21,790 nucleotides of DNA. It comes from Thermoproteota archaeon. GTDB lineage: Archaea > Thermoproteota > EX4484-205 > JAAOZP01. The notes below the pieces were generated by a model. It was not told the DNA's origin, did not search any database, and saw only the letters and a program-made list of their open reading frames with translations. Below are positions 933 to 17,077 of the stretch, piece by piece. The translations under genes and the position numbers were made by a program. Position 1 is the first letter of the stretch. Each line of letters starts with the position of its first letter. The stretch spans positions 1 to 21,790 of the forward strand of contig JBNAVT010000031.1 in NCBI GenBank assembly GCA_049700215.1, in the 5' to 3' direction.

Positions 933-946
933 GAAAAGTTAATATA
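933..946 (+). promoter_or_regulatory. BRE + TATA promoter of leuACD; predicted TSS about 968-969
   Basis: GAAAAG (933-938) directly followed by TTAATATA (939-946). The same TTAATATA occurs in the ilvB promoter. Confidence 0.75.
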
Positions 947-967: not shown

Positions 968-1047
968 AGGAGGTGTGTCGTGCACACATGATGCGTAACG
1001 CCCAAAGGGGGCGAGACTACCTGCGTTCCAGCGCAAGCAACACCTCT
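968..1047 (+). ncRNA. Candidate cis-regulatory structured leader RNA (BCAA leader motif, leuA copy)
   Basis: P1 GAGGUGU 970-976 / ACACCUC 1040-1046. Hairpin CGCCC 999-1003 / GGGCG 1009-1013. Hairpin UGCG 1022-1025 / CGCA 1032-1035. Homologous to 14695-14787 (-) upstream of ilvB. Confidence 0.7.
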
Positions 1048-1051
1048 ATCA

Positions 1052-1078
1052 GATACTGTTGAAAAACAGTGTTGTTTT
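1052..1078 (+). promoter_or_regulatory. GAAA-tetraloop hairpin with short U tract in the leuA leader (possible attenuator or expression platform)
   Basis: GAUACUGUU 1052-1060 / GAAA / AACAGUGUU 1065-1073 (9 bp including 2 G-U), then GUUUU. Confidence 0.45.
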
Positions 1079-1103
1079 AAACCTGTTTTAGGAGGGGTGC
1101 GTA

Positions 1104-2642
1104 ATGGTTTGGAGAGGATACCTTACTGAGACGAAAATACCTGACAAGGTGGTTCTTTTCGACACTACTCTGAGAGACGGCGAGCAGACCCCGGGAGTTG
1201 CGCTTACGCCCGAAGACAAGCTTAAGATAGCGAGACAGCTGGACTTGCTTGGAGTACCCGTATTAGAGGCAGGCTTCCCGGCGACATCGCACGGCGAGGA
1301 GGAGGCTATTAAGCTAATAGTCAGAGAAGGATTGAACGCGGAGATAGCCGCCCTATCCAGATGCGTGAAGCAGGATATTGAGAAAGCCGCTTCAACCGGT
1401 GCTGGAAGAATACATCTCTTCATAGCGACCTCGGATATTCATTTGAAGAAGAAGCTCCAGATAAGCAGGGATGAAGCTATACGCAGAGCAGTTGAATCCA
1501 TCGACCTAGCTAAATCCTATGGTGTTAAAATAGAGTTTTCAGCTGAGGATGCGACTAGGACAGGCATTGACTTCCTAGTGGAGTTCTACAGGGCGGTTGA
1601 AGAGGCAGGGGCAAGCATGGTTGATATTCCGGATACTGTAGGCGTCGCTACACCCTTAGCCATGAGAGAGATTGTTAAGAGGGTTTGCGAAGCCCTGAGG
1701 ATCCCGGTTGCTGTGCACTGCCACAACGACATGGGTCTAGCGGTTGCGAACACGCTGGCGGGCATCGAGGGGGGAGCGGTCGAGGCTCACGTAACCGTGA
1801 ACGGGCTTGGCGAGAGAGCAGGCAACGCGAGCCTGGAGGAGGTGGCGGTTTCCCTGAAAGTACTATACGGCGTGGAAACAGGCTTGAAGTTTAAAGAGAT
1901 ATACAACACCTGCAGGCTGGTTTCACTCATAACAGGCATAGCAATACCTGTGAATAAGCCGATAGTCGGGGAAAACGCTTTCTCCCATGAGAGCGGAATC
2001 CATACTCACGGCATAATAGCGTCTCCCGAGACATACGAGCCTATAAACCCTGAGTTCGTCGGGGCTAGGAGAAGACTGGTGGCTGGGAAACACGCAGGCG
2101 TCCACGGGATTTCAGCGCAGCTTGAGGAAATGGGTTACAGGCTGAGCGAGGAGGAGTTGAGACAGATCCTTAAAATAGTTAAGGATATTGGCGACAAGGG
2201 TAAGAAGATTACTGACGCTGAACTCGCCTCGATAGCTGAAAGCATCATAGGATACGGGGTTGGCGAGAATAACCGTATTGAGCTTGAAGAGCTTCTGGTA
2301 GTTACAGGCTTGAACACTACTCCCACTGCAGCGATAAAAGTAAAGTGGGGCGAGCAGGCTTGGAGGGGTGCTGAGTTCGGCGTTGGGCCGATAGATGCTT
2401 CGATGAAGGCCGTAAGCAGAATCCTCGGCGATCTGGTTAAGATAAAGCTTGAAAGCTTCCGGCTGGAGGCGATAACCGGAGGTACGGACGCGCTTGCGGA
2501 GGTAACTGTCAGGGTTTCAGACGAGGAAGGCCGGAGCGTTACTGCGAAAGGCTTCAGCGAGGACATCGTGCTGGCTGGGGTTTACGCGATACTGAACGGG
2601 GCGAACAGGCTTCTTCAAATCAGGAAGAGGGCTGGGAGATGA
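1104..2642 (+). CDS. leuA: 2-isopropylmalate synthase (LeuA/CimA family, with C-terminal regulatory domain)
   Basis: DTTLRDGEQ, EAGFP, HLFIATSDIH, HCHND, GLGERAGN, HESGIH and GVGPIDA motifs. SD AGGAGGGGTG at 1090-1099. Overlaps leuC by ATGA. Confidence 0.92.
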   Translation: MVWRGYLTETKIPDKVVLFDTTLRDGEQTPGVALTPEDKLKIARQLDLLGVPVLEAGFPATSHGEEEAIKLIVREGLNAEIAALSRCVKQDIEKAASTGAGRIHLFIATSDIHLKKKLQISRDEAIRRAVESIDLAKSYGVKIEFSAEDATRTGIDFLVEFYRAVEEAGASMVDIPDTVGVATPLAMREIVKRVCEALRIPVAVHCHNDMGLAVANTLAGIEGGAVEAHVTVNGLGERAGNASLEEVAVSLKVLYGVETGLKFKEIYNTCRLVSLITGIAIPVNKPIVGENAFSHESGIHTHGIIASPETYEPINPEFVGARRRLVAGKHAGVHGISAQLEEMGYRLSEEELRQILKIVKDIGDKGKKITDAELASIAESIIGYGVGENNRIELEELLVVTGLNTTPTAAIKVKWGEQAWRGAEFGVGPIDASMKAVSRILGDLVKIKLESFRLEAITGGTDALAEVTVRVSDEEGRSVTAKGFSEDIVLAGVYAILNGANRLLQIRKRAGR

Positions 2643-8788: not shown

Positions 8789-9802
8789 CTAAATCCTTAG
8801 ACTGTTTTCCACGCTTGGACGTACGGGGTGGGAATCGTAGCCGAGCCTCTTAAGCTCCCTGGAGAACTCCTCTGGGAAACCGTGGACTGTGAAAACCTTC
8901 TCCGGACTGGTTTCCCTCACGATTTCGATCAAGCCTTCGAAATCAGCGTGATCGCTAAGGGGGAAAGCCTTGTCTACGCCAAGCGTCTCACAATACCAGT
9001 TGAAAAGCGACCTGCCTGAGAAGCTTATGAAGACGGCGTCATACTTCCTCTTGATCAGCTGCATGAAAGCATTCCTGCCTGAGACATTAGGATAGTAGAG
9101 AGCCCAGGAGCCGTTGGGCAGCTCTGAGGACTGGGGCGTGAAAACCTTCTTCCCCCCTATTCCTATTGAGAAGAGCCTGTACACGTTGTTATACTCCGCT
9201 ATTGACGGGGAAACGTATGTTTCGACAACGCCTTGGAGAACAGGATCCAGGATCATTTGAAGATGTTGAGACTTCCCCAGTGGATAACCCATGAGAACCA
9301 TTGGCCTGCCCCTCCGGACTGTTTCACTCACGTAGTCAACAATCTCCCTGATCAGCTGCCTCCTAGGGGGGAAGACAAGGCTGGGACGCCCATAGTTCGA
9401 CTCTATTATCAGGGTGTGGACCCTTGGGAAGCATTGCCTAAGTATGCCTTCAACAGGGGAAGTGTTAACGTCCCCCGTGTACAGTACCACACCCCTATCG
9501 GTTTCAACGAGGAGCGCTTTAGACCCTAGAATGTGGCCTGAGTCGAGGAGAGTGAAAGGGTCGGGTTCAACACGTTTAACCTCAAGCCCCCTGAGCGTTG
9601 AAAGCAGCAGGGTTTCCTCTGAGCATACTGCTAAAGCCCTCCTCGCGTCCGACTTACCAAGATGGTCGAAGTGAGCGTGAGATATGAAAAGATAGTCCAT
9701 CGGCTCGAAGCCCGTTTTCAGAAACGCCTCTCCTTCTCTGAAGCATAGGGTTGCGAAACGGTCCAGCTTAATCGAAAAACTCCTCGGGCATGCTGCAGAC
9801 AT
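8789..9802 (-). CDS. Metallo-beta-lactamase/beta-CASP nuclease (COG1236-like)
   Basis: SHAHFDH, GHILGS, YTGD, LIIESNYG, GYPLGKSQ, LSDHADF and VHG motifs. Confidence 0.85.
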   Translation of the reverse strand: MSAACPRSFSIKLDRFATLCFREGEAFLKTGFEPMDYLFISHAHFDHLGKSDARRALAVCSEETLLLSTLRGLEVKRVEPDPFTLLDSGHILGSKALLVETDRGVVLYTGDVNTSPVEGILRQCFPRVHTLIIESNYGRPSLVFPPRRQLIREIVDYVSETVRRGRPMVLMGYPLGKSQHLQMILDPVLQGVVETYVSPSIAEYNNVYRLFSIGIGGKKVFTPQSSELPNGSWALYYPNVSGRNAFMQLIKRKYDAVFISFSGRSLFNWYCETLGVDKAFPLSDHADFEGLIEIVRETSPEKVFTVHGFPEEFSRELKRLGYDSHPVRPSVENSLRI

Positions 9803-12970: not shown

Positions 12971-14644
12971 CTACCTCCCCACGATAACGCTGTCGAGCGG
13001 GGAAGCTGGAGGAACCATTGGGAAAACATTATCCTCCCGCTCAACAATCACGTCGATCACAGTTGCCTCATCCTGCTCCAGAGCAGTCTCGAGAGCATCT
13101 TTAAGCTCGCTTATCCTCGTCACCTTAAAACCCCTGGCGCCGAAGCCCTCTGAAACCCTAGCTATGTCAGCCCTACCCTTCAGGTCCACGGCGATATACC
13201 TCCTGCCGTAGAAGAGCTCCTGCCACTGCCTAACCATACCCAGGAAATAATTGTTGAGAACCACGACTATGATCGGCAGGTTATAGTCGACTGAGACAGG
13301 AAGCTGGTTGCAAGTCATGAAGAAGCTGCCGTCCCCAGCAATGTCGAAAACACGGCTCCCGGGGAAAGCCGCCTTAACCCCGATTGCAGCCGGAAGCCCG
13401 AAGCCCATTGTCCCCAGGCCACCGGAGGATATGAACTGTCTTGGGCGCCTAACTGTGAAGTGGAGTGAAGCATACATCTGGCACTGGCCCACCTCGGTCG
13501 TAACGAAATCCTCAACCCTAACGTAGTCGCTAAGAACCCTGACGGCAGCACTAGGATCCACGGGGACAGCATCATAGTCGTAAAAGAACTCTGACTCCCT
13601 CCTGAGCTGCTTCACCCTCTCACCCCATGCGCCAGCCTTACCCTTCTGGAGAAGCCTGAGAACCGCCTCGCGAACCCTGTTTAGAACCTGCTTAGCGTCA
13701 CCGGCGATGCCTAGGTCTGGCTTAAGCAGCTTCCCGATCTCAGACCTATCTATGTCCACGTGTATCTTCCTCGCCCTCGGGGCGAAGCCGTTCAGCTTGC
13801 CCGTAGTCCTGTCGCTGAACCTCATGCCTACTGCGAGAACCAGGTCGCTCTCCTGAACAGCCTTGATCGCGCCAAGCCTCCCGTGCATCCCGAGCGTCCC
13901 CAGGGACAACGGGTGGTTCTCAGGAATGCTCCCCTTACCCATGAGCGTCGTCGCCACAGGAGCGTTCAGAAGCTCAGCCAAGGCGATGAGCTCGCTGGAC
14001 GCGCCTGATATTATTACTCCTCCCCCGGCGATGATCACAGGCCTCTCAGCCTCAACCAGCATCCTGGCGGCGGAGAGAATCTCCTCGTCAGAGGGCGTGG
14101 GCGGCTCATACGAGTAAACGTAGAAATCATCATCAGGTTCACCCTCCATGAGCTGAACATCCCTGGGAACATCTATGTGAACAGGCCCAGGCCTTCCGGA
14201 CAAGGCTATTTTAAAAGCGTTCTCGAGAGCAGAGTTAAGCTCATTCAAATCCCTGGGCAGAAAGTTCATCTTAGTCAACCCTATCATCATCGAGAAAATA
14301 TTAGCCTCCTGGAAACCGTCGTAGCCTATGAGCGGCGTCGCAACCTGGCCGGCTATGCTTAAAACCGGCGAGGAATCCAAGTAGGCGTTAGCAATTCCCG
14401 TGGCAAGGTTGGTGGCGCCAGGGCCTGATGTCGCGACGACGACGCCCATCCTGCCGGTTGCCCTAGCATAGCCGTCAGCCATGTGGGCAGCACCCTGCTC
14501 GTGCCTAGTCAGAATGAACTCGATGCTACTCTCCTTATACAGCTCGTCTAGGAACGGGAGCACAGCGCCACCAGGCACTCCGAAGATGGTTTTAACCCCG
14601 TTCTCCCTCAGCTTCTCCACTAGCAGTCTAGACCCTGAAACCAT
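12971..14644 (-). CDS. ilvB: Acetolactate synthase large subunit, biosynthetic type
   Basis: FGVPGG, RHEQGAAHMADGYAR, TSGPGATN, GMHG, RFSDR, SGGLGTMGFG, GDG..NN TPP motif and LGMVRQWQ. SD GAGGTG at 14656-14651. Confidence 0.96.
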   Translation of the reverse strand: MVSGSRLLVEKLRENGVKTIFGVPGGAVLPFLDELYKESSIEFILTRHEQGAAHMADGYARATGRMGVVVATSGPGATNLATGIANAYLDSSPVLSIAGQVATPLIGYDGFQEANIFSMMIGLTKMNFLPRDLNELNSALENAFKIALSGRPGPVHIDVPRDVQLMEGEPDDDFYVYSYEPPTPSDEEILSAARMLVEAERPVIIAGGGVIISGASSELIALAELLNAPVATTLMGKGSIPENHPLSLGTLGMHGRLGAIKAVQESDLVLAVGMRFSDRTTGKLNGFAPRARKIHVDIDRSEIGKLLKPDLGIAGDAKQVLNRVREAVLRLLQKGKAGAWGERVKQLRRESEFFYDYDAVPVDPSAAVRVLSDYVRVEDFVTTEVGQCQMYASLHFTVRRPRQFISSGGLGTMGFGLPAAIGVKAAFPGSRVFDIAGDGSFFMTCNQLPVSVDYNLPIIVVVLNNYFLGMVRQWQELFYGRRYIAVDLKGRADIARVSEGFGARGFKVTRISELKDALETALEQDEATVIDVIVEREDNVFPMVPPASPLDSVIVGR

Positions 14645-14694
14645 TTAAAACACCTCTCGCAAACAGCCTTTTGAAAACTCTTTCTTCCCCTATT

Positions 14695-14787
14695 GGAGGT
14701 TGAGCTTGCAGCGGGGCCTCTGCAGTTGGTGGACGGTGTCCCGCCCCCTTGGAGCGTGAATACTATGGTACACTCAGCGCACCTCCT
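14695..14787 (-). ncRNA. Candidate cis-regulatory structured leader RNA (BCAA leader motif, ilvB copy)
   Basis: P1 GGAGGU 14786-14781 / ACCUCC 14700-14695. CGCUCC-AAG-GGGGCG 14756-14742. GGAC-ACC-GUCC 14741-14731. UGCAG/CUGCA 14724-14707. Homologous to 968-1047 (+). Confidence 0.7.
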
Positions 14788-14811
14788 AAGCAGTGGGCCC
14801 CCCACGAGGCA

Positions 14812-14826
14812 TATATTAATCTTTCC
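14812..14826 (-). promoter_or_regulatory. BRE + TATA promoter of ilvBNCD; predicted TSS about 14789-14787
   Basis: Minus strand GGAAAGA followed by TTAATATA (14819-14812). Confidence 0.72.
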
Positions 14827-16758: not shown

Positions 16759-16784
16759 GTCCATCCTGTTTCACTCCAGTGTCT

Positions 16785-16858
16785 GCGGCGCTGGTCTAGC
16801 CTGGTATGACACCAGCCCCCCAAGCTGGGAATCCCGGGTTCAAATCCCGGGCGCCGCA
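16785..16858 (+). tRNA. tRNA-Gly(CCC), intronless, CCA not encoded, atypical C33
   Basis: Acceptor GCGGCGC/GCGCCGC + A73. D arm GTCT-AGCCTGGTA-TGAC. Anticodon stem CCAGC/GCTGG with loop CCCCCAA (anticodon 16819-16821). T arm CCGGG-TTCAAAT-CCCGG. Confidence 0.95.
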
Positions 16859-17077
16859 TTCCCCACTCTTGTAAGCCGCTTAAGGGCCTCTAGGCAGCTC
16901 CAACGCTCGCCACCGGAAAACCTGGCGTCAAGATTGTTTTCACACGGTTAAAAAAAGAATATATGCGGGCAGCGGACACCGTTAGCATGCTGAAGAACCT
17001 GAAAAGGCTCTGCAACTCCAGTAATACGGTCAAGCCTGCTAAGGGCTTTCGAAACACCCGCCTAGGATGAGTCTGAG

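What the first reader, a model, noticed from the sequence alone, without database searches (positions are those of the whole stretch)
1040..1103. Built-in expression platform: the anti-SD strand can swap between a 5' decoy SD and the true SD
Seen: the 5' arm of the outer stem is itself a perfect SD (AGGAGGUG), so the 3' arm is an anti-SD. In leuA, CACCUCU (1041-1047) pairs with 969-975 or, mutually exclusively, with the real SD AGGGGUG (1093-1099; 7 bp with one G-U). TTTAGGAGG is duplicated at 965-973 and 1087-1095. The intervening GAAA hairpin (1052-1073) shortens the distance and has its own alternative pairing, AAAACAG (1063-1069) with CUGUUUU (1083-1089). In ilvB, ACCUC (14700-14696) can likewise pair with the true SD GAGGU (14656-14652). 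Inference: motif folded leaves the true SD free (ON), and P1 opened, for example by a ribosome or factor on the 5' SD, sequesters the true SD (OFF). This would be translational attenuation in an archaeon.
Basis: partly seen in the sequence, partly recalled or inferred. Interest (0 to 1): 0.78.

Follow-up and report, generated by a model that had tools for sequence, protein, structure and literature searches.

The report
Archaeal leucine/valine leader with upstream mini-gene
Two amino-acid biosynthesis operons of an uncultured hot-spring archaeon carry related leaders with a short upstream reading frame and a ribosome-site look-alike pair, which looks like bacterial-style attenuation, a control not yet shown in archaea.

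Summary
CACCUCU (1041-1047) can pair with the 5' AGGAGGUG or with the leuA SD.

The stretch is the 3' half of a ~135-nt leader. A paralogous leader precedes ilvBNCD. Both occur in 16 of 16 other genomes of one Brockarchaeota-type genus, once per operon where assembled. No Rfam family matches.

By promoter geometry the transcript starts at about AGGAGGUG. That element is the SD of a 20-27-codon upstream ORF, open with an in-frame start in 47 of 47 distinct leaders. The other two frames carry stops in 18 alignment columns.

The ORF has an invariant Leu CUG in leu leaders, and Val GUC plus Leu CUG in ilv leaders. A sister-family ilvB leader keeps the frame and ends I-L-C-V-L.

The anti-SD lies at the end of this ORF. 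In the window's leuA leader P1 is the minimum-energy fold and the swap costs +3.1 kcal/mol. In ilvB P1 is weak. No pairing shows informative covariation, and the swap is predicted in only some homologs.

Best reading (about 0.4): leader-peptide translational attenuation. The direction of the logic is unresolved and no expression data exist.

The parts
933..946 (+). leuA-leader promoter: purine-rich BRE-like GAAAAG followed by the TATA box TTAATATA (939-946)
   Evidence: The box is present in all 47 distinct leaders, which were selected for having it. In this genome, starts without an SD lie 28-35 nt from such a box in 14 of 33 cases, and SD-led starts lie 41-50 nt away in 11 of 23. This puts the transcript start at about 968. 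That position is inferred; no RNA data exist.
968..975 (+). 5' SD AGGAGGUG at the inferred 5' end of the transcript. [quoted passage not shown]
   Evidence: It is an 8-nt perfect complement of the 16S 3' end. GGAGGTG is invariant in the alignments, but it was part of the search patterns.
973..987 (+). Hairpin H1 (973-977 paired with 983-987). It overlaps the last 3 nt of the 5' SD and, in most homologs, the GUG start of the upstream ORF. It competes with the inner half of P1.
   Evidence: 99.2% of cells are paired and 2 of 5 pairs have changes on both sides. Only 1 of 500 shuffles reached the observed values.
988..1062 (+). Upstream ORF (leader peptide) of 24 codons plus UGA, giving MMRNAQRGRDYLRSSASNTSIRYC. 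The UGA at 1060-1062 sits at the loop of the 1052-1073 hairpin.
   Evidence: The frame is open with an in-frame start in 47 of 47 leaders. Stop-containing alignment columns number 0 in this frame against 4 and 14 in the other two. The indels I could place inside the ORF are 6 and 9 nt (my reading).
1005..1016 (+). Invariant G-rich core AAGGGGGCGAGA, read as R-G-R-D in the upstream ORF. It is SD-like (AGGGGG) and forms the 3' arm and loop of hairpin H2 (999-1003 with 1009-1013).
   Evidence: It is shared by both paralogs and, with one change, by the sister-family leader. Most of it was part of the search patterns. H2 is 96.2% paired, with one-sided changes only.
1021..1023 (+). Invariant Leu codon CUG of the upstream ORF, the candidate regulatory codon. 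It is also the 5' side of a small CUG...CAG hairpin.
   Evidence: CUG occupies the same position in 22 of 22 leu leaders. Val GUC occupies the equivalent position in 25 of 25 ilv leaders.
1040..1047 (+). Anti-SD ACACCUCU, a mimic of the 16S 3' end. It is the 3' arm of P1 and the alternative partner of the leuA SD. It lies inside the upstream ORF, 13 nt before its stop.
1052..1089 (+). GAAA-loop hairpin (1052-1073), then an A-tract and two U4 tracts (1075-1078 and 1086-1089) that abut the SD.
   Evidence: U-runs between the upstream-ORF stop and the main start are mostly U4: leu 18 with U4, 1 with U5, 3 with U6; in ilv, 4 of 25 have no run of 3 or more.
1090..1106 (+). True leuA SD AGGAGGGGUG (1090-1099) and start codon (1104-1106)
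   Evidence: ORF 1104-2642 is 2-isopropylmalate synthase, E 2e-199.
14642..14819 (-). Paralogous ilvB leader on the minus strand.
- TATA box: 14819-14812
- 5' SD: 14787-14780
- Upstream ORF: GUG at 14773 to UAG at 14692-14690, 27 codons
- G-rich core: 14750-14739
- Val GUC: 14734-14732
- Leu CUG: 14725-14723
- Anti-SD CCUCC: 14699-14695, containing the in-frame Leu codon CUC
- True SD GAGAGGUG: 14658-14651
- ATG: 14644-14642
   Evidence: ORF 12971-14644 is the acetolactate synthase large subunit.

Best explanation
The flagged stretch is the expression-platform half of a leader-peptide translational attenuator that precedes both leuACD and ilvBNCD.

**Anatomy, shown by sequence and comparison**
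- The promoter is followed at the usual distance by AGGAGGUG.
- A 20-27-codon upstream ORF starts 4-12 nt after that element.
- The ORF carries an invariant SD-like G-rich core, then operon-specific invariant codons: Leu CUG before leuA; Val GUC and Leu CUG before ilvB.
- A 16S-tail mimic (the anti-SD) lies at the end of the ORF.
- An A/U-rich spacer and the main gene's SD follow.

**Mechanism, inferred and not shown**
- The anti-SD has two partners: the upstream ORF's own SD (helix P1, the stronger duplex) and the main gene's SD.
- Ribosomes decide which partner is free. Initiation on the 5' SD opens P1 and lets the anti-SD close the main SD.
- A ribosome at the end of the upstream ORF covers the anti-SD.
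- Slow decoding at the Leu or Val codon changes how often each state occurs. This would tie leuA and ilvB translation to the supply of Leu- and Val-tRNA.

Which state is ON under starvation cannot be derived from sequence. Two readings remain open. In the classical reading, a hungry-codon stall lets P1 form, so the main SD is free. In the other, the conserved R-G-R-D peptide causes an arrest induced by the amino acid itself.
For: **Distribution and homology**
- The two leaders in the window are paralogs, with 77% mean column identity.
- In the order search, 16 of 16 other genomes of the genus have the pattern and 0 of 9 other genomes do. Fourteen of those 16 have two copies and two have one.
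- A covariance model found it in 13 of 13 genus genomes among 151 phylum genomes. The 4 weak outside hits lie inside long open frames.

**Upstream ORF**
- It is open with an in-frame start in 47 of 47 distinct leaders.
- Stop-containing alignment columns number 0 in its frame, against 4 and 14 in the other frames. This covers 20 leu and 25 ilv rows; two leu rows with indels were left out.
- Where GUG at +6 is lost, in the clade of the window's leuA leader, an in-frame AUG sits 6 nt further on. The former GUGUAC hexamer, otherwise nearly invariant, then becomes variable.
- The stop position is fixed at the same position in 21 of 22 leu leaders, although the stop codon and its context differ.
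- The TATA-to-start distance of 43-48 nt matches SD-led genes of this genome.

**Codons and the sister family**
- CUG is invariant in 22 of 22 leu leaders. GUC and a second CUG are invariant in 25 of 25 ilv leaders.
- By my reading of the pairwise alignment, the ilv leader differs from the leu leader by an in-frame block of about 9 nt that carries the Val codon.
- The sister-family ilvB leader keeps the frame over R-G-R..P-V.Q and ends in I-L-C-V-L-stop.

**Anti-SD**
- It is the best binder of the 5' SD in 46 of 47 leaders. Mean duplex energies are -12.6 and -11.8 kcal/mol with the 5' SD, against -8.8 and -9.8 with the true SD.
- A ribosome placed at the upstream-ORF stop removes anti-SD:SD pairing. 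In ilv it raises SD accessibility from 0.33 to 0.45.
Against: - There are no RNA, 5'-end or ribosome data. No RNA run was listed, so the transcript start and translation of the upstream ORF are inferred.
- Synonymous changes are not in excess in the ORF frame: fraction 0.22-0.28, against 0.20-0.32 in the other frames.
- Third codon positions are not more variable than the others: 9/9/9 and 5/4/5.
- Each operon has only single regulatory codons, not runs. CUG and GUC are ordinary codons, at 22% and 21% usage.
- A ribosome stalled at the Leu or Val codon would cover about 38-65 nt from the 5' end. It would not reach the anti-SD at 72-79 or 85-92. In the models that state does not change SD accessibility: 0.37 to 0.36 in leu, and 0.33 to 0.33 in ilv.
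- For P1 to form in that state it would have to enclose the stalled ribosome, which may be sterically awkward.
- The swap is predicted in only part of the homologs. The anti-SD is the best binder of the true SD in only 22 of 47.
- No pairing shows informative covariation.
- In the sister-family leader the SD is predicted open (0.75) in every state.
- The 12-nt core is invariant at the nucleotide level, which a plain leader peptide does not explain.
- A scan of this genome for a TATA box, a strong SD, a short ORF and then an SD-led long ORF returned only the ilv leader. Its 3-10-nt spacing window excluded even the leuA leader, so the scan is narrow.
Confidence: 0.4

Rival explanations
1. The leader is a structured RNA sensor. 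P1 closes a four-way junction (H1, H2 and a CUG...CAG hairpin), and the invariant core binds a protein or a small ligand such as a branched-chain amino acid or a regulator loaded with one. Binding stabilises P1 and keeps the anti-SD away from the main SD. The upstream ORF is incidental or secondary.
For: - The window's leuA leader folds into a P1-closed junction as its minimum-energy structure.
- H1 shows real covariation.
- The 12-nt core is invariant at the nucleotide level in both paralogs, including third codon positions of AGG and GGG. It is nearly so in the sister family.
- Synonymous changes are not in excess.
Against: - P1 is weak in ilv: forcing it costs +6.6 kcal/mol in the window's ilvB leader, and its 7th pair forms in only 13 of 24 rows.
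- H2 shows only one-sided changes and 5 unpaired cells.
- The 5' arm of H2 is deleted in the sister-family leader, which still keeps the core.
- No Rfam family matches.
- This reading does not explain the open frame, the in-frame start shift or the operon-specific Leu and Val codons.
Confidence: 0.2
2. The leader is a transcription-level attenuator. Translation of the upstream ORF controls premature termination at the U-tracts just before the main SD, either intrinsically at oligo-U or through the archaeal termination factor acting on ribosome-free RNA. The anti-SD pairings are secondary.
For: - U4-U6 runs abut the SD in leu leaders: 18 with U4, 1 with U5 and 3 with U6.
- A U6 run sits 3 nt before the SD in the sister-family leader.
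- In the window, a hairpin plus a U-rich tail follows the upstream-ORF stop.
- From my own knowledge, not from any call: archaeal RNA polymerase terminates at oligo-U.
Against: - Most runs are only U4. Of 25 ilv leaders, 4 have no U-run of 3 or more, and some of the counted runs lie after the SD.
- The 1052-1073 hairpin is not conserved as drawn.
- No conserved terminator/antiterminator alternative was found.
- This reading does not explain the conservation of the anti-SD.
Confidence: 0.15
3. There is no switch. The upstream ORF and its strong SD act constitutively, for example by loading ribosomes, stabilising the 5' end, or coupling translation by unmasking. The anti-SD complementarity to the main SD follows automatically from its pairing with an SD-like 5' arm.
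For: - Any anti-SD pairs with any SD. Shuffle controls equal the observed values.
- Modelled SD accessibility changes little between states, with means of 0.25-0.45.
- AGGAGGTG occurs 110 times in the genome, and only 24 of these precede an ORF of 60 aa or more.
Against: - This architecture was found at the two branched-chain amino-acid operons and at nothing else (the genome scan found no third case).
- The cognate codons are invariant.
- The sister-family peptide ends in a cluster of branched-chain residues.
Confidence: 0.2

Closest known systems
Cysteine-responsive leaderless short-ORF attenuators of mycobacteria (Canestrari et al., bioRxiv 10.1101/834739; abstract and outline read)
   Same: A short ORF is the first cistron of a biosynthetic operon. 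It carries codons cognate to the end product. [quoted passage not shown]
   Different: - The mycobacterial ORFs have a run of Cys codons, and the stalled ribosome sits on the sequestering strand. Here each operon has single invariant Leu or Val codons 19-35 nt upstream of the anti-SD.
- Only in 17 of 25 ilv leaders does an in-frame Leu codon (CUC) lie inside the anti-SD.
- Here the anti-SD has a second partner, the short ORF's own SD.
- This system is archaeal, is not homologous and is untested.
LEU element upstream of leuA in Actinobacteria (Seliverstov et al. 2005, PMC1262725; passages read)
   Same: It lies upstream of leuA. It has an upstream ORF, a compact fold with a base stem that involves the leuA SD, and pyrimidine-rich Leu-type codons as the SD partner. 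Its mechanism is also unresolved; that paper weighed attenuation against protein binding.
   Different: - The LEU element is a pseudoknot whose base stem is formed by a run of Leu codons and the SD. Here the base stem (P1) joins the upstream ORF's own SD to an anti-SD that is not read as Leu in leu leaders.
- No sequence similarity was seen.
- The domain of life differs.
Enterobacterial leu and ilvB leader-peptide transcription attenuators (recalled from general knowledge; not read here)
   Same: A leader peptide precedes leucine and ilvB operons. The regulatory codons match the pathway's end products: Leu for leu, and Val plus Leu for ilvB.
   Different: Those have runs of regulatory codons and a terminator/antiterminator pair followed by a U-run. 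Here no conserved terminator alternative was found, and the conserved partner elements are SDs.
ermC/cat-type translational attenuation (recalled; not read here)
   Same: A ribosome on a leader ORF re-partitions alternative helices, one of which hides the main SD.
   Different: Those are induced by a drug through nascent-peptide arrest and use four segments. Here there are three SD-type segments and an amino-acid context.
Translational T-box (ileS of Actinobacteria; mentioned in PMC1262725)
   Same: A leader of an amino-acid-related gene controls SD sequestration, and a cognate codon sits at a fixed place.
   Different: No Rfam model matched at E up to 10. The CUG lies in a stem, not a specifier loop. 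No conserved UGGN bulge was identified. Not a member.

Membership tests
Leader-peptide (ribosome-mediated) attenuator | A short ORF with its own ribosome-binding site in the leader of a biosynthetic operon | tested here: met
   There is an 8-nt SD and a start 4-12 nt downstream. The frame is open in 47 of 47 leaders, and the other frames are interrupted. Translation itself is not shown.
Leader-peptide (ribosome-mediated) attenuator | Regulatory codons cognate to the end product, usually in tandem | tested here: inconclusive
   The genus has single invariant CUG (leu) or GUC plus CUG (ilv) codons. CUG-CUU tandems occur in some clades. Only the sister-family peptide ends in an I-L-C-V-L cluster.
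Leader-peptide (ribosome-mediated) attenuator | Mutually exclusive terminator and antiterminator hairpins followed by a U-run (transcriptional type) | tested here: not met
   No conserved terminator alternative was found. U-runs are mostly U4 and are absent in 4 of 25 ilv leaders.
Translational attenuator with SD sequestration | A leader segment complementary to the main gene's SD, conserved across homologs | tested here: met
   The 5-bp core pairing is possible in 97.3% of leu cells and 97.5% of ilv cells. It carries no covariation information.
Translational attenuator with SD sequestration | The stalled ribosome overlaps or displaces the sequestering strand | tested here: inconclusive
   A stall at CUG or GUC does not reach the anti-SD and does not change modelled accessibility. 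A ribosome at the upstream-ORF stop does cover the anti-SD.
Translational attenuator with SD sequestration | Expression responds to the amino acid and depends on translation of the leader ORF | not testable with these tools
   The organism is uncultured and no RNA run was listed.
T-box riboswitch | Match to the T-box covariance model, with a specifier loop and a tRNA 3'-end binding bulge | tested here: not met
   No Rfam match at E up to 10 in the leu leader. The ilv leader gave only two chance lncRNA hits, at E 4.4 and 7.7. That Rfam holds a T-box model is recalled, not checked.
Any curated RNA family (Rfam 15) | A score at or above the gathering threshold | tested here: not met
   The only hit in the window is tRNA-Gly at 16785-16858.

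The most novel reading that the evidence does not exclude
This would be the first ribosome-mediated attenuator in Archaea.

A 5'-terminal upstream ORF would sense Leu and Val supply, through hungry codons or through an amino-acid-dependent arrest peptide built on the invariant R-G-R-D core. That core, as AGGGGG, may also act as an internal SD-like pause site 7-9 nt ahead of the sensed codon. The output would be a three-way SD / anti-SD / SD switch, in which a mimic of the 16S rRNA tail toggles between the leader ORF's own ribosome-binding site and that of the biosynthetic gene.
Probability: 0.3. Interest if true: 0.8.

Novelty: new variant of a known kind. Interest (0 to 1): 0.6.

Why it matters
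To my knowledge, amino-acid control by leader peptides is textbook in bacteria but has not been demonstrated in any archaeon. My five literature searches found no archaeal case.

Archaea couple transcription and translation and use SD pairing, so the mechanism is possible in principle. Here there is a concrete, compact and testable candidate.
- The two paralogous leaders differ exactly where the sensed codon should differ.
- The switch uses only SD-type elements.
- The conserved 12-nt core is not explained by known attenuators.

If confirmed, it would show that attenuation arose or persisted in Archaea. It would also give a small portable regulatory part for thermophilic archaeal hosts.

Tried and rejected
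**Known RNA families.** Rfam found nothing at gathering or permissive thresholds.

**tRNA-like fold.** P1 plus three hairpins is about 79 nt. ARAGORN finds only tRNA-Gly in the window and Rfam tRNA does not hit the leaders, so this was rejected.

**T-box-like tRNA sensing.** There is no model match and the CUG lies in a stem. The G-rich core's best duplex among the 20 tRNAs that ARAGORN found in the genome is with tRNA-Leu(CAG/UAG), at -16.5 kcal/mol. The next tRNAs score -15.3 to -14.7, so this is not an outlier. Treated as chance.

**K-turn or L7Ae site.** Checked by eye only. The bases flanking H2 are not conserved as G-A pairs, so this was dropped.

**Coding selection on the peptide.** Synonymous changes are not in excess and third positions show no bias. 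The claim 'the peptide sequence is under selection' is therefore not made.

**A general mechanism for other operons.** A scan of this genome returned only the ilv leader. The scan was narrow: it needed a TATA box, a strong SD, a start 3-10 nt on, a short ORF and then an SD-led long ORF. That spacing window excluded even the leuA leader.

**Spread outside the genus.** blastn, pattern and covariance-model searches found nothing beyond the genus. The exception is one diverged ilvB leader in the single genome of a sister family, found by reading upstream of its ilvB. Four weak covariance-model hits lie in coding frames. Seven bacterial hits of the collection scan fit the few chance matches expected.

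**The regulatory-codon region as SD sequestrator.** The idea was that, as in the mycobacterial logic, the region around the regulatory codon hides the main SD. It is the best duplex partner in some leaders, but whole-leader models show no change when that region is masked. Not adopted.

**SD sequestration in the sister-family leader.** It is not predicted; accessibility is 0.75 in all states.

**Expression data.** Supplementary files of papers were not consulted.
Full report
**What is there**

The window is a contig of an archaeal metagenome-assembled genome of 2.09 Mb in 85 contigs. Public records that carry the same element are titled Candidatus Brockarchaeota or Thermoproteota MAGs.

ORF 1104-2642 is 2-isopropylmalate synthase, followed by the two subunits of isopropylmalate isomerase. 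On the minus strand, 14644-12971 is the acetolactate synthase large subunit, followed by its small subunit, ketol-acid reductoisomerase and dihydroxy-acid dehydratase.

Both operons are preceded by paralogous leaders with 77% mean column identity. Each leader starts with the same BRE/TATA block.

**Check of the observation**

- CACCUCU at 1041-1047 forms 7 bp with one G-U with GGAGGUG at 969-975.
- It also forms 7 bp with one G-U with AGGGGUG at 1093-1099.
- TTTAGGAGG is duplicated as stated.
- The 1052-1073 hairpin, the 1063-1069/1083-1089 alternative and the ilvB ACCUC/GAGGU pair all exist.
- The genome's 16S gene ends ...GGAUCACCUCCU. So the 5' element is a perfect 8-nt SD and the internal CACCUCU mimics the rRNA tail.

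**Distribution**

| Search | Result |
|---|---|
| Specific pattern, own genome | exactly two hits |
| Same pattern, order (26 genomes) | 16 of 16 other genus genomes (two copies in 14, one in 2); 0 of 9 others |
| blastn, leu leader | 12 of 16 genus genomes; 0 of 24 outside |
| blastn, ilv leader | 15 of 16 genus genomes; 0 of 24 outside |
| Covariance model of the 5' 50 nt, 151 phylum genomes | 13 of 13 genus genomes; 4 weak hits (E 0.015-0.1) inside long open frames |
| Scan of about 185,000 species genomes | 36 stretches: 29 archaeal MAG records and 7 bacterial chance hits |
| Metagenome scan | 38 stretches |

After removing duplicates there are 47 distinct leaders, 22 leu and 25 ilv. No Rfam family matches.

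**Where the RNA starts (inferred)**

In this genome, starts without an SD cluster 28-35 nt downstream of the first T of a TATA-like box (14 of 33 cases). SD-led starts cluster at 41-50 nt (11 of 23 cases).

In the leaders, the A of AGGAGG lies 29-34 nt from the box and the first in-frame start lies 43-48 nt from it. The transcript therefore most likely begins at or just before AGGAGGUG. That makes AGGAGGUG an ordinary ribosome-binding site of a first cistron, not a decoy. No RNA run could be listed to test this.

**The upstream ORF**

- In 37 of the 47 leaders a GUG lies 6 nt after GGAGGUG. In the clade of the window's leuA leader the start is an in-frame AUG 6 nt further on, and one leader has both types.
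- Where the GUG is kept, the hexamer GUGUAC is almost invariant. Where the AUG has taken over, the same six positions vary, while the small hairpin they belong to is maintained.
- The frame is open for 20-27 codons in 47 of 47 leaders. Over the comparable region it has no stop-containing alignment column, against 4 and 14 in the other two frames (20 leu and 25 ilv rows, two indel-bearing rows left out).
- By my reading of the alignments, the indels inside the ORF are 6 nt and about 9 nt, whereas 1-nt length differences are common after its stop.
- The stop position is constant in 21 of 22 leu leaders even though the stop codon and its context differ.
- Against peptide-level selection, synonymous changes are not enriched in this frame and third positions are not more variable. 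What seems to be kept is translation and a few codons, not the peptide as a whole.

**Operon-specific codons**

After the shared core, read as A-x-R-G-R-D, all 22 leu leaders have x-Leu(CUG). All 25 ilv leaders have x-Val(GUC)-x-Gln-Leu(CUG). The extra ilv block is in frame.

This is the pattern expected for end-product sensing: Leu for the leucine branch, Val plus Leu for the common pathway. CUG and GUC are ordinary codons here, at 22% and 21% usage.

The single genome of a sister family has a diverged but clearly homologous ilvB leader.
- It shares the TATA block, the GUGUAC hexamer fused directly to the G-rich core, and the following Val-codon region.
- It lacks the 5' AGGAGGUG and the CCUCC, and it appears to start leaderless.
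- It keeps an ORF in the same frame over R-G-R..P-V.Q, and that ORF ends I-L-C-V-L-stop.

I regard this as the strongest single argument that these are leader peptides. The same genome's leuA has no such leader, and another family has leuA-ilvB inside a larger operon without a leader.

**RNA structure**

- Hairpin H1, which overlaps the SD's last 3 nt and the GUG start, is 99.2% paired with two doubly compensated pairs.
- H2, which holds the G-rich core, shows only one-sided changes. Its 5' arm is deleted in the sister family.
- P1 in leu leaders is possible in 97.7% of cells, but shuffled controls give 97.5%, and only one sequence shows a double change.
- P1 in ilv leaders is 5-6 bp.
The 5-bp core holds in 97.3% of leu cells and 97.5% of ilv cells, again equal to the shuffled controls.
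- Covariation therefore cannot decide between partners. Two SDs and one anti-SD are complementary by construction.

**Energetics**

Window leaders folded from the inferred 5' end:

| Leader | Free MFE, 37 C (kcal/mol) | P1 forced | Anti-SD:SD forced | At 70 C |
|---|---|---|---|---|
| leuA | -53.2 (contains P1) | -53.2 (same as free) | -50.1 (+3.1) | forced swap costs +1.7 |
| ilvB | -54.8 (has neither pairing) | -48.2 (+6.6) | -52.2 (+2.6) | the alternative is the MFE |

- Duplex energies favour the 5' SD as partner: -12.6 and -11.8 kcal/mol, against -8.8 and -9.8 with the true SD. The anti-SD is the best binder of the 5' SD in 46 of 47 leaders but of the main SD in only 22 of 47.
- In partition-function models of all 47 leaders, masking the 5' SD as an initiating subunit would raises anti-SD:main-SD pairing from 0.12 to 0.25 (leu) and from 0.44 to 0.55 (ilv). 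It lowers SD accessibility from 0.37 to 0.25 and from 0.33 to 0.28.
- A ribosome at the upstream-ORF stop abolishes that pairing and raises ilv SD accessibility to 0.45.
- A ribosome stalled at the Leu or Val codon changes nothing on average.
- The effect is strong in the window's leuA leader (accessibility 0.30 to 0.07) and absent in its ilvB leader.

**How it most likely works**

The following are shown by sequence and comparison:
- a genus-wide, operon-specific pair of leaders;
- a maintained upstream ORF behind a perfect SD;
- fixed cognate codons;
- a conserved rRNA-tail mimic placed so that a terminating ribosome covers it;
- thermodynamically plausible alternative pairing of that mimic with either SD in the leuA leader.

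The following are inferred:
- the upstream ORF is translated;
- ribosome occupancy of the 5' SD, the sensed codon and the ORF end decides whether the anti-SD holds the leader's own SD (main SD free) or the main SD (closed).

The sign of the response is not determined. The classical starvation-stall reading needs P1 to form around a stalled ribosome. The geometry fits better with a model in which ribosomes that reach the ORF end unmask the main SD, and stalling upstream prevents that. For a biosynthetic operon, that model would call for an arrest induced by the amino acid itself. The invariant core is SD-like and lies 7-9 nt before the sensed codon, and it remains unexplained.

I put the leader-peptide translational attenuator at about 0.4. 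The rivals are a ligand- or protein-binding RNA (0.2), a U-tract transcription attenuator (0.15) and a constitutive leader (0.2).

**Comparison with known systems**

- It works most like the mycobacterial Cys-responsive short-ORF attenuators (abstract read).
- It also resembles the unresolved actinobacterial LEU element upstream of leuA (passages read).
- Its codon logic matches the enterobacterial leu and ilvB leaders (recalled, not read here).
- It is not a member of any curated RNA family.
- Five full-text searches found no archaeal leader-peptide or branched-chain amino-acid leader element. Papers outside that library and all supplementary files were not seen.

**Verdict**

The finding is a new variant of a known kind of control, a candidate archaeal attenuator, with interest 0.6.

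Noticed in passing
window 14811-14788 (minus strand), and the same place in other ilv leaders: Between the TATA box and the 5' SD, upstream of the inferred transcript start, ilv promoters carry a GC-rich palindrome of the form GCCC...GGGC with a variable centre. Its hairpin energy is -4 kcal/mol or lower in 22 of 25 ilv leaders (mean z -1.64) but in only 12 of 22 leu leaders, and it is absent in the window's leuA promoter. It could be an operator for a dimeric regulator.
   Followed up: partly
window 1104-1110 and 14644-14638 (minus strand): Both main genes begin with the same 7 nt, ATGGTTT (Met-Val). The start regex ATGG[TC]TT matched in all 47 leaders. The reason for this shared start context is unknown.
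   Followed up: no
window 1084-1133: In the minimum-energy fold of the window's leuA leader, the SD region pairs with leuA codons about 15-30 nt into the gene rather than being free. This may be chance.
   Followed up: no
window 8789-9802 (minus strand): A 337-aa metallo-beta-lactamase/beta-CASP nuclease-like ORF starts 4 nt after the end of the dihydroxy-acid dehydratase gene on the same strand, so it may be co-transcribed with ilvBNCD. Its best family hit is below the cut-off.
   Followed up: no
window 16784-16859: A tRNA-Gly(CCC) gene is the only Rfam or ARAGORN hit in the window.
   Followed up: yes
G017:C76:25575-26968 (L167/L168): The sister-family acetolactate synthase match is split in two pieces with one in-frame TAG. 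This could be a frameshift, an assembly error or a broken gene.
   Followed up: no
genomes G019, G021, G023 (a third family of the order): No match to the window's LeuA or IlvB at E 1e-40 or better in three genomes that are 88-93% complete. They may lack the pathway.
   Followed up: no
window 1005-1017 versus tRNA-Leu genes of the genome: The G-rich core can form 8 bp (-16.5 kcal/mol) with the 3' side of the anticodon stem plus the start of the variable arm of tRNA-Leu(CAG) and tRNA-Leu(UAG). This is the best score among the 20 tRNAs found, but it is not an outlier.
   Followed up: partly
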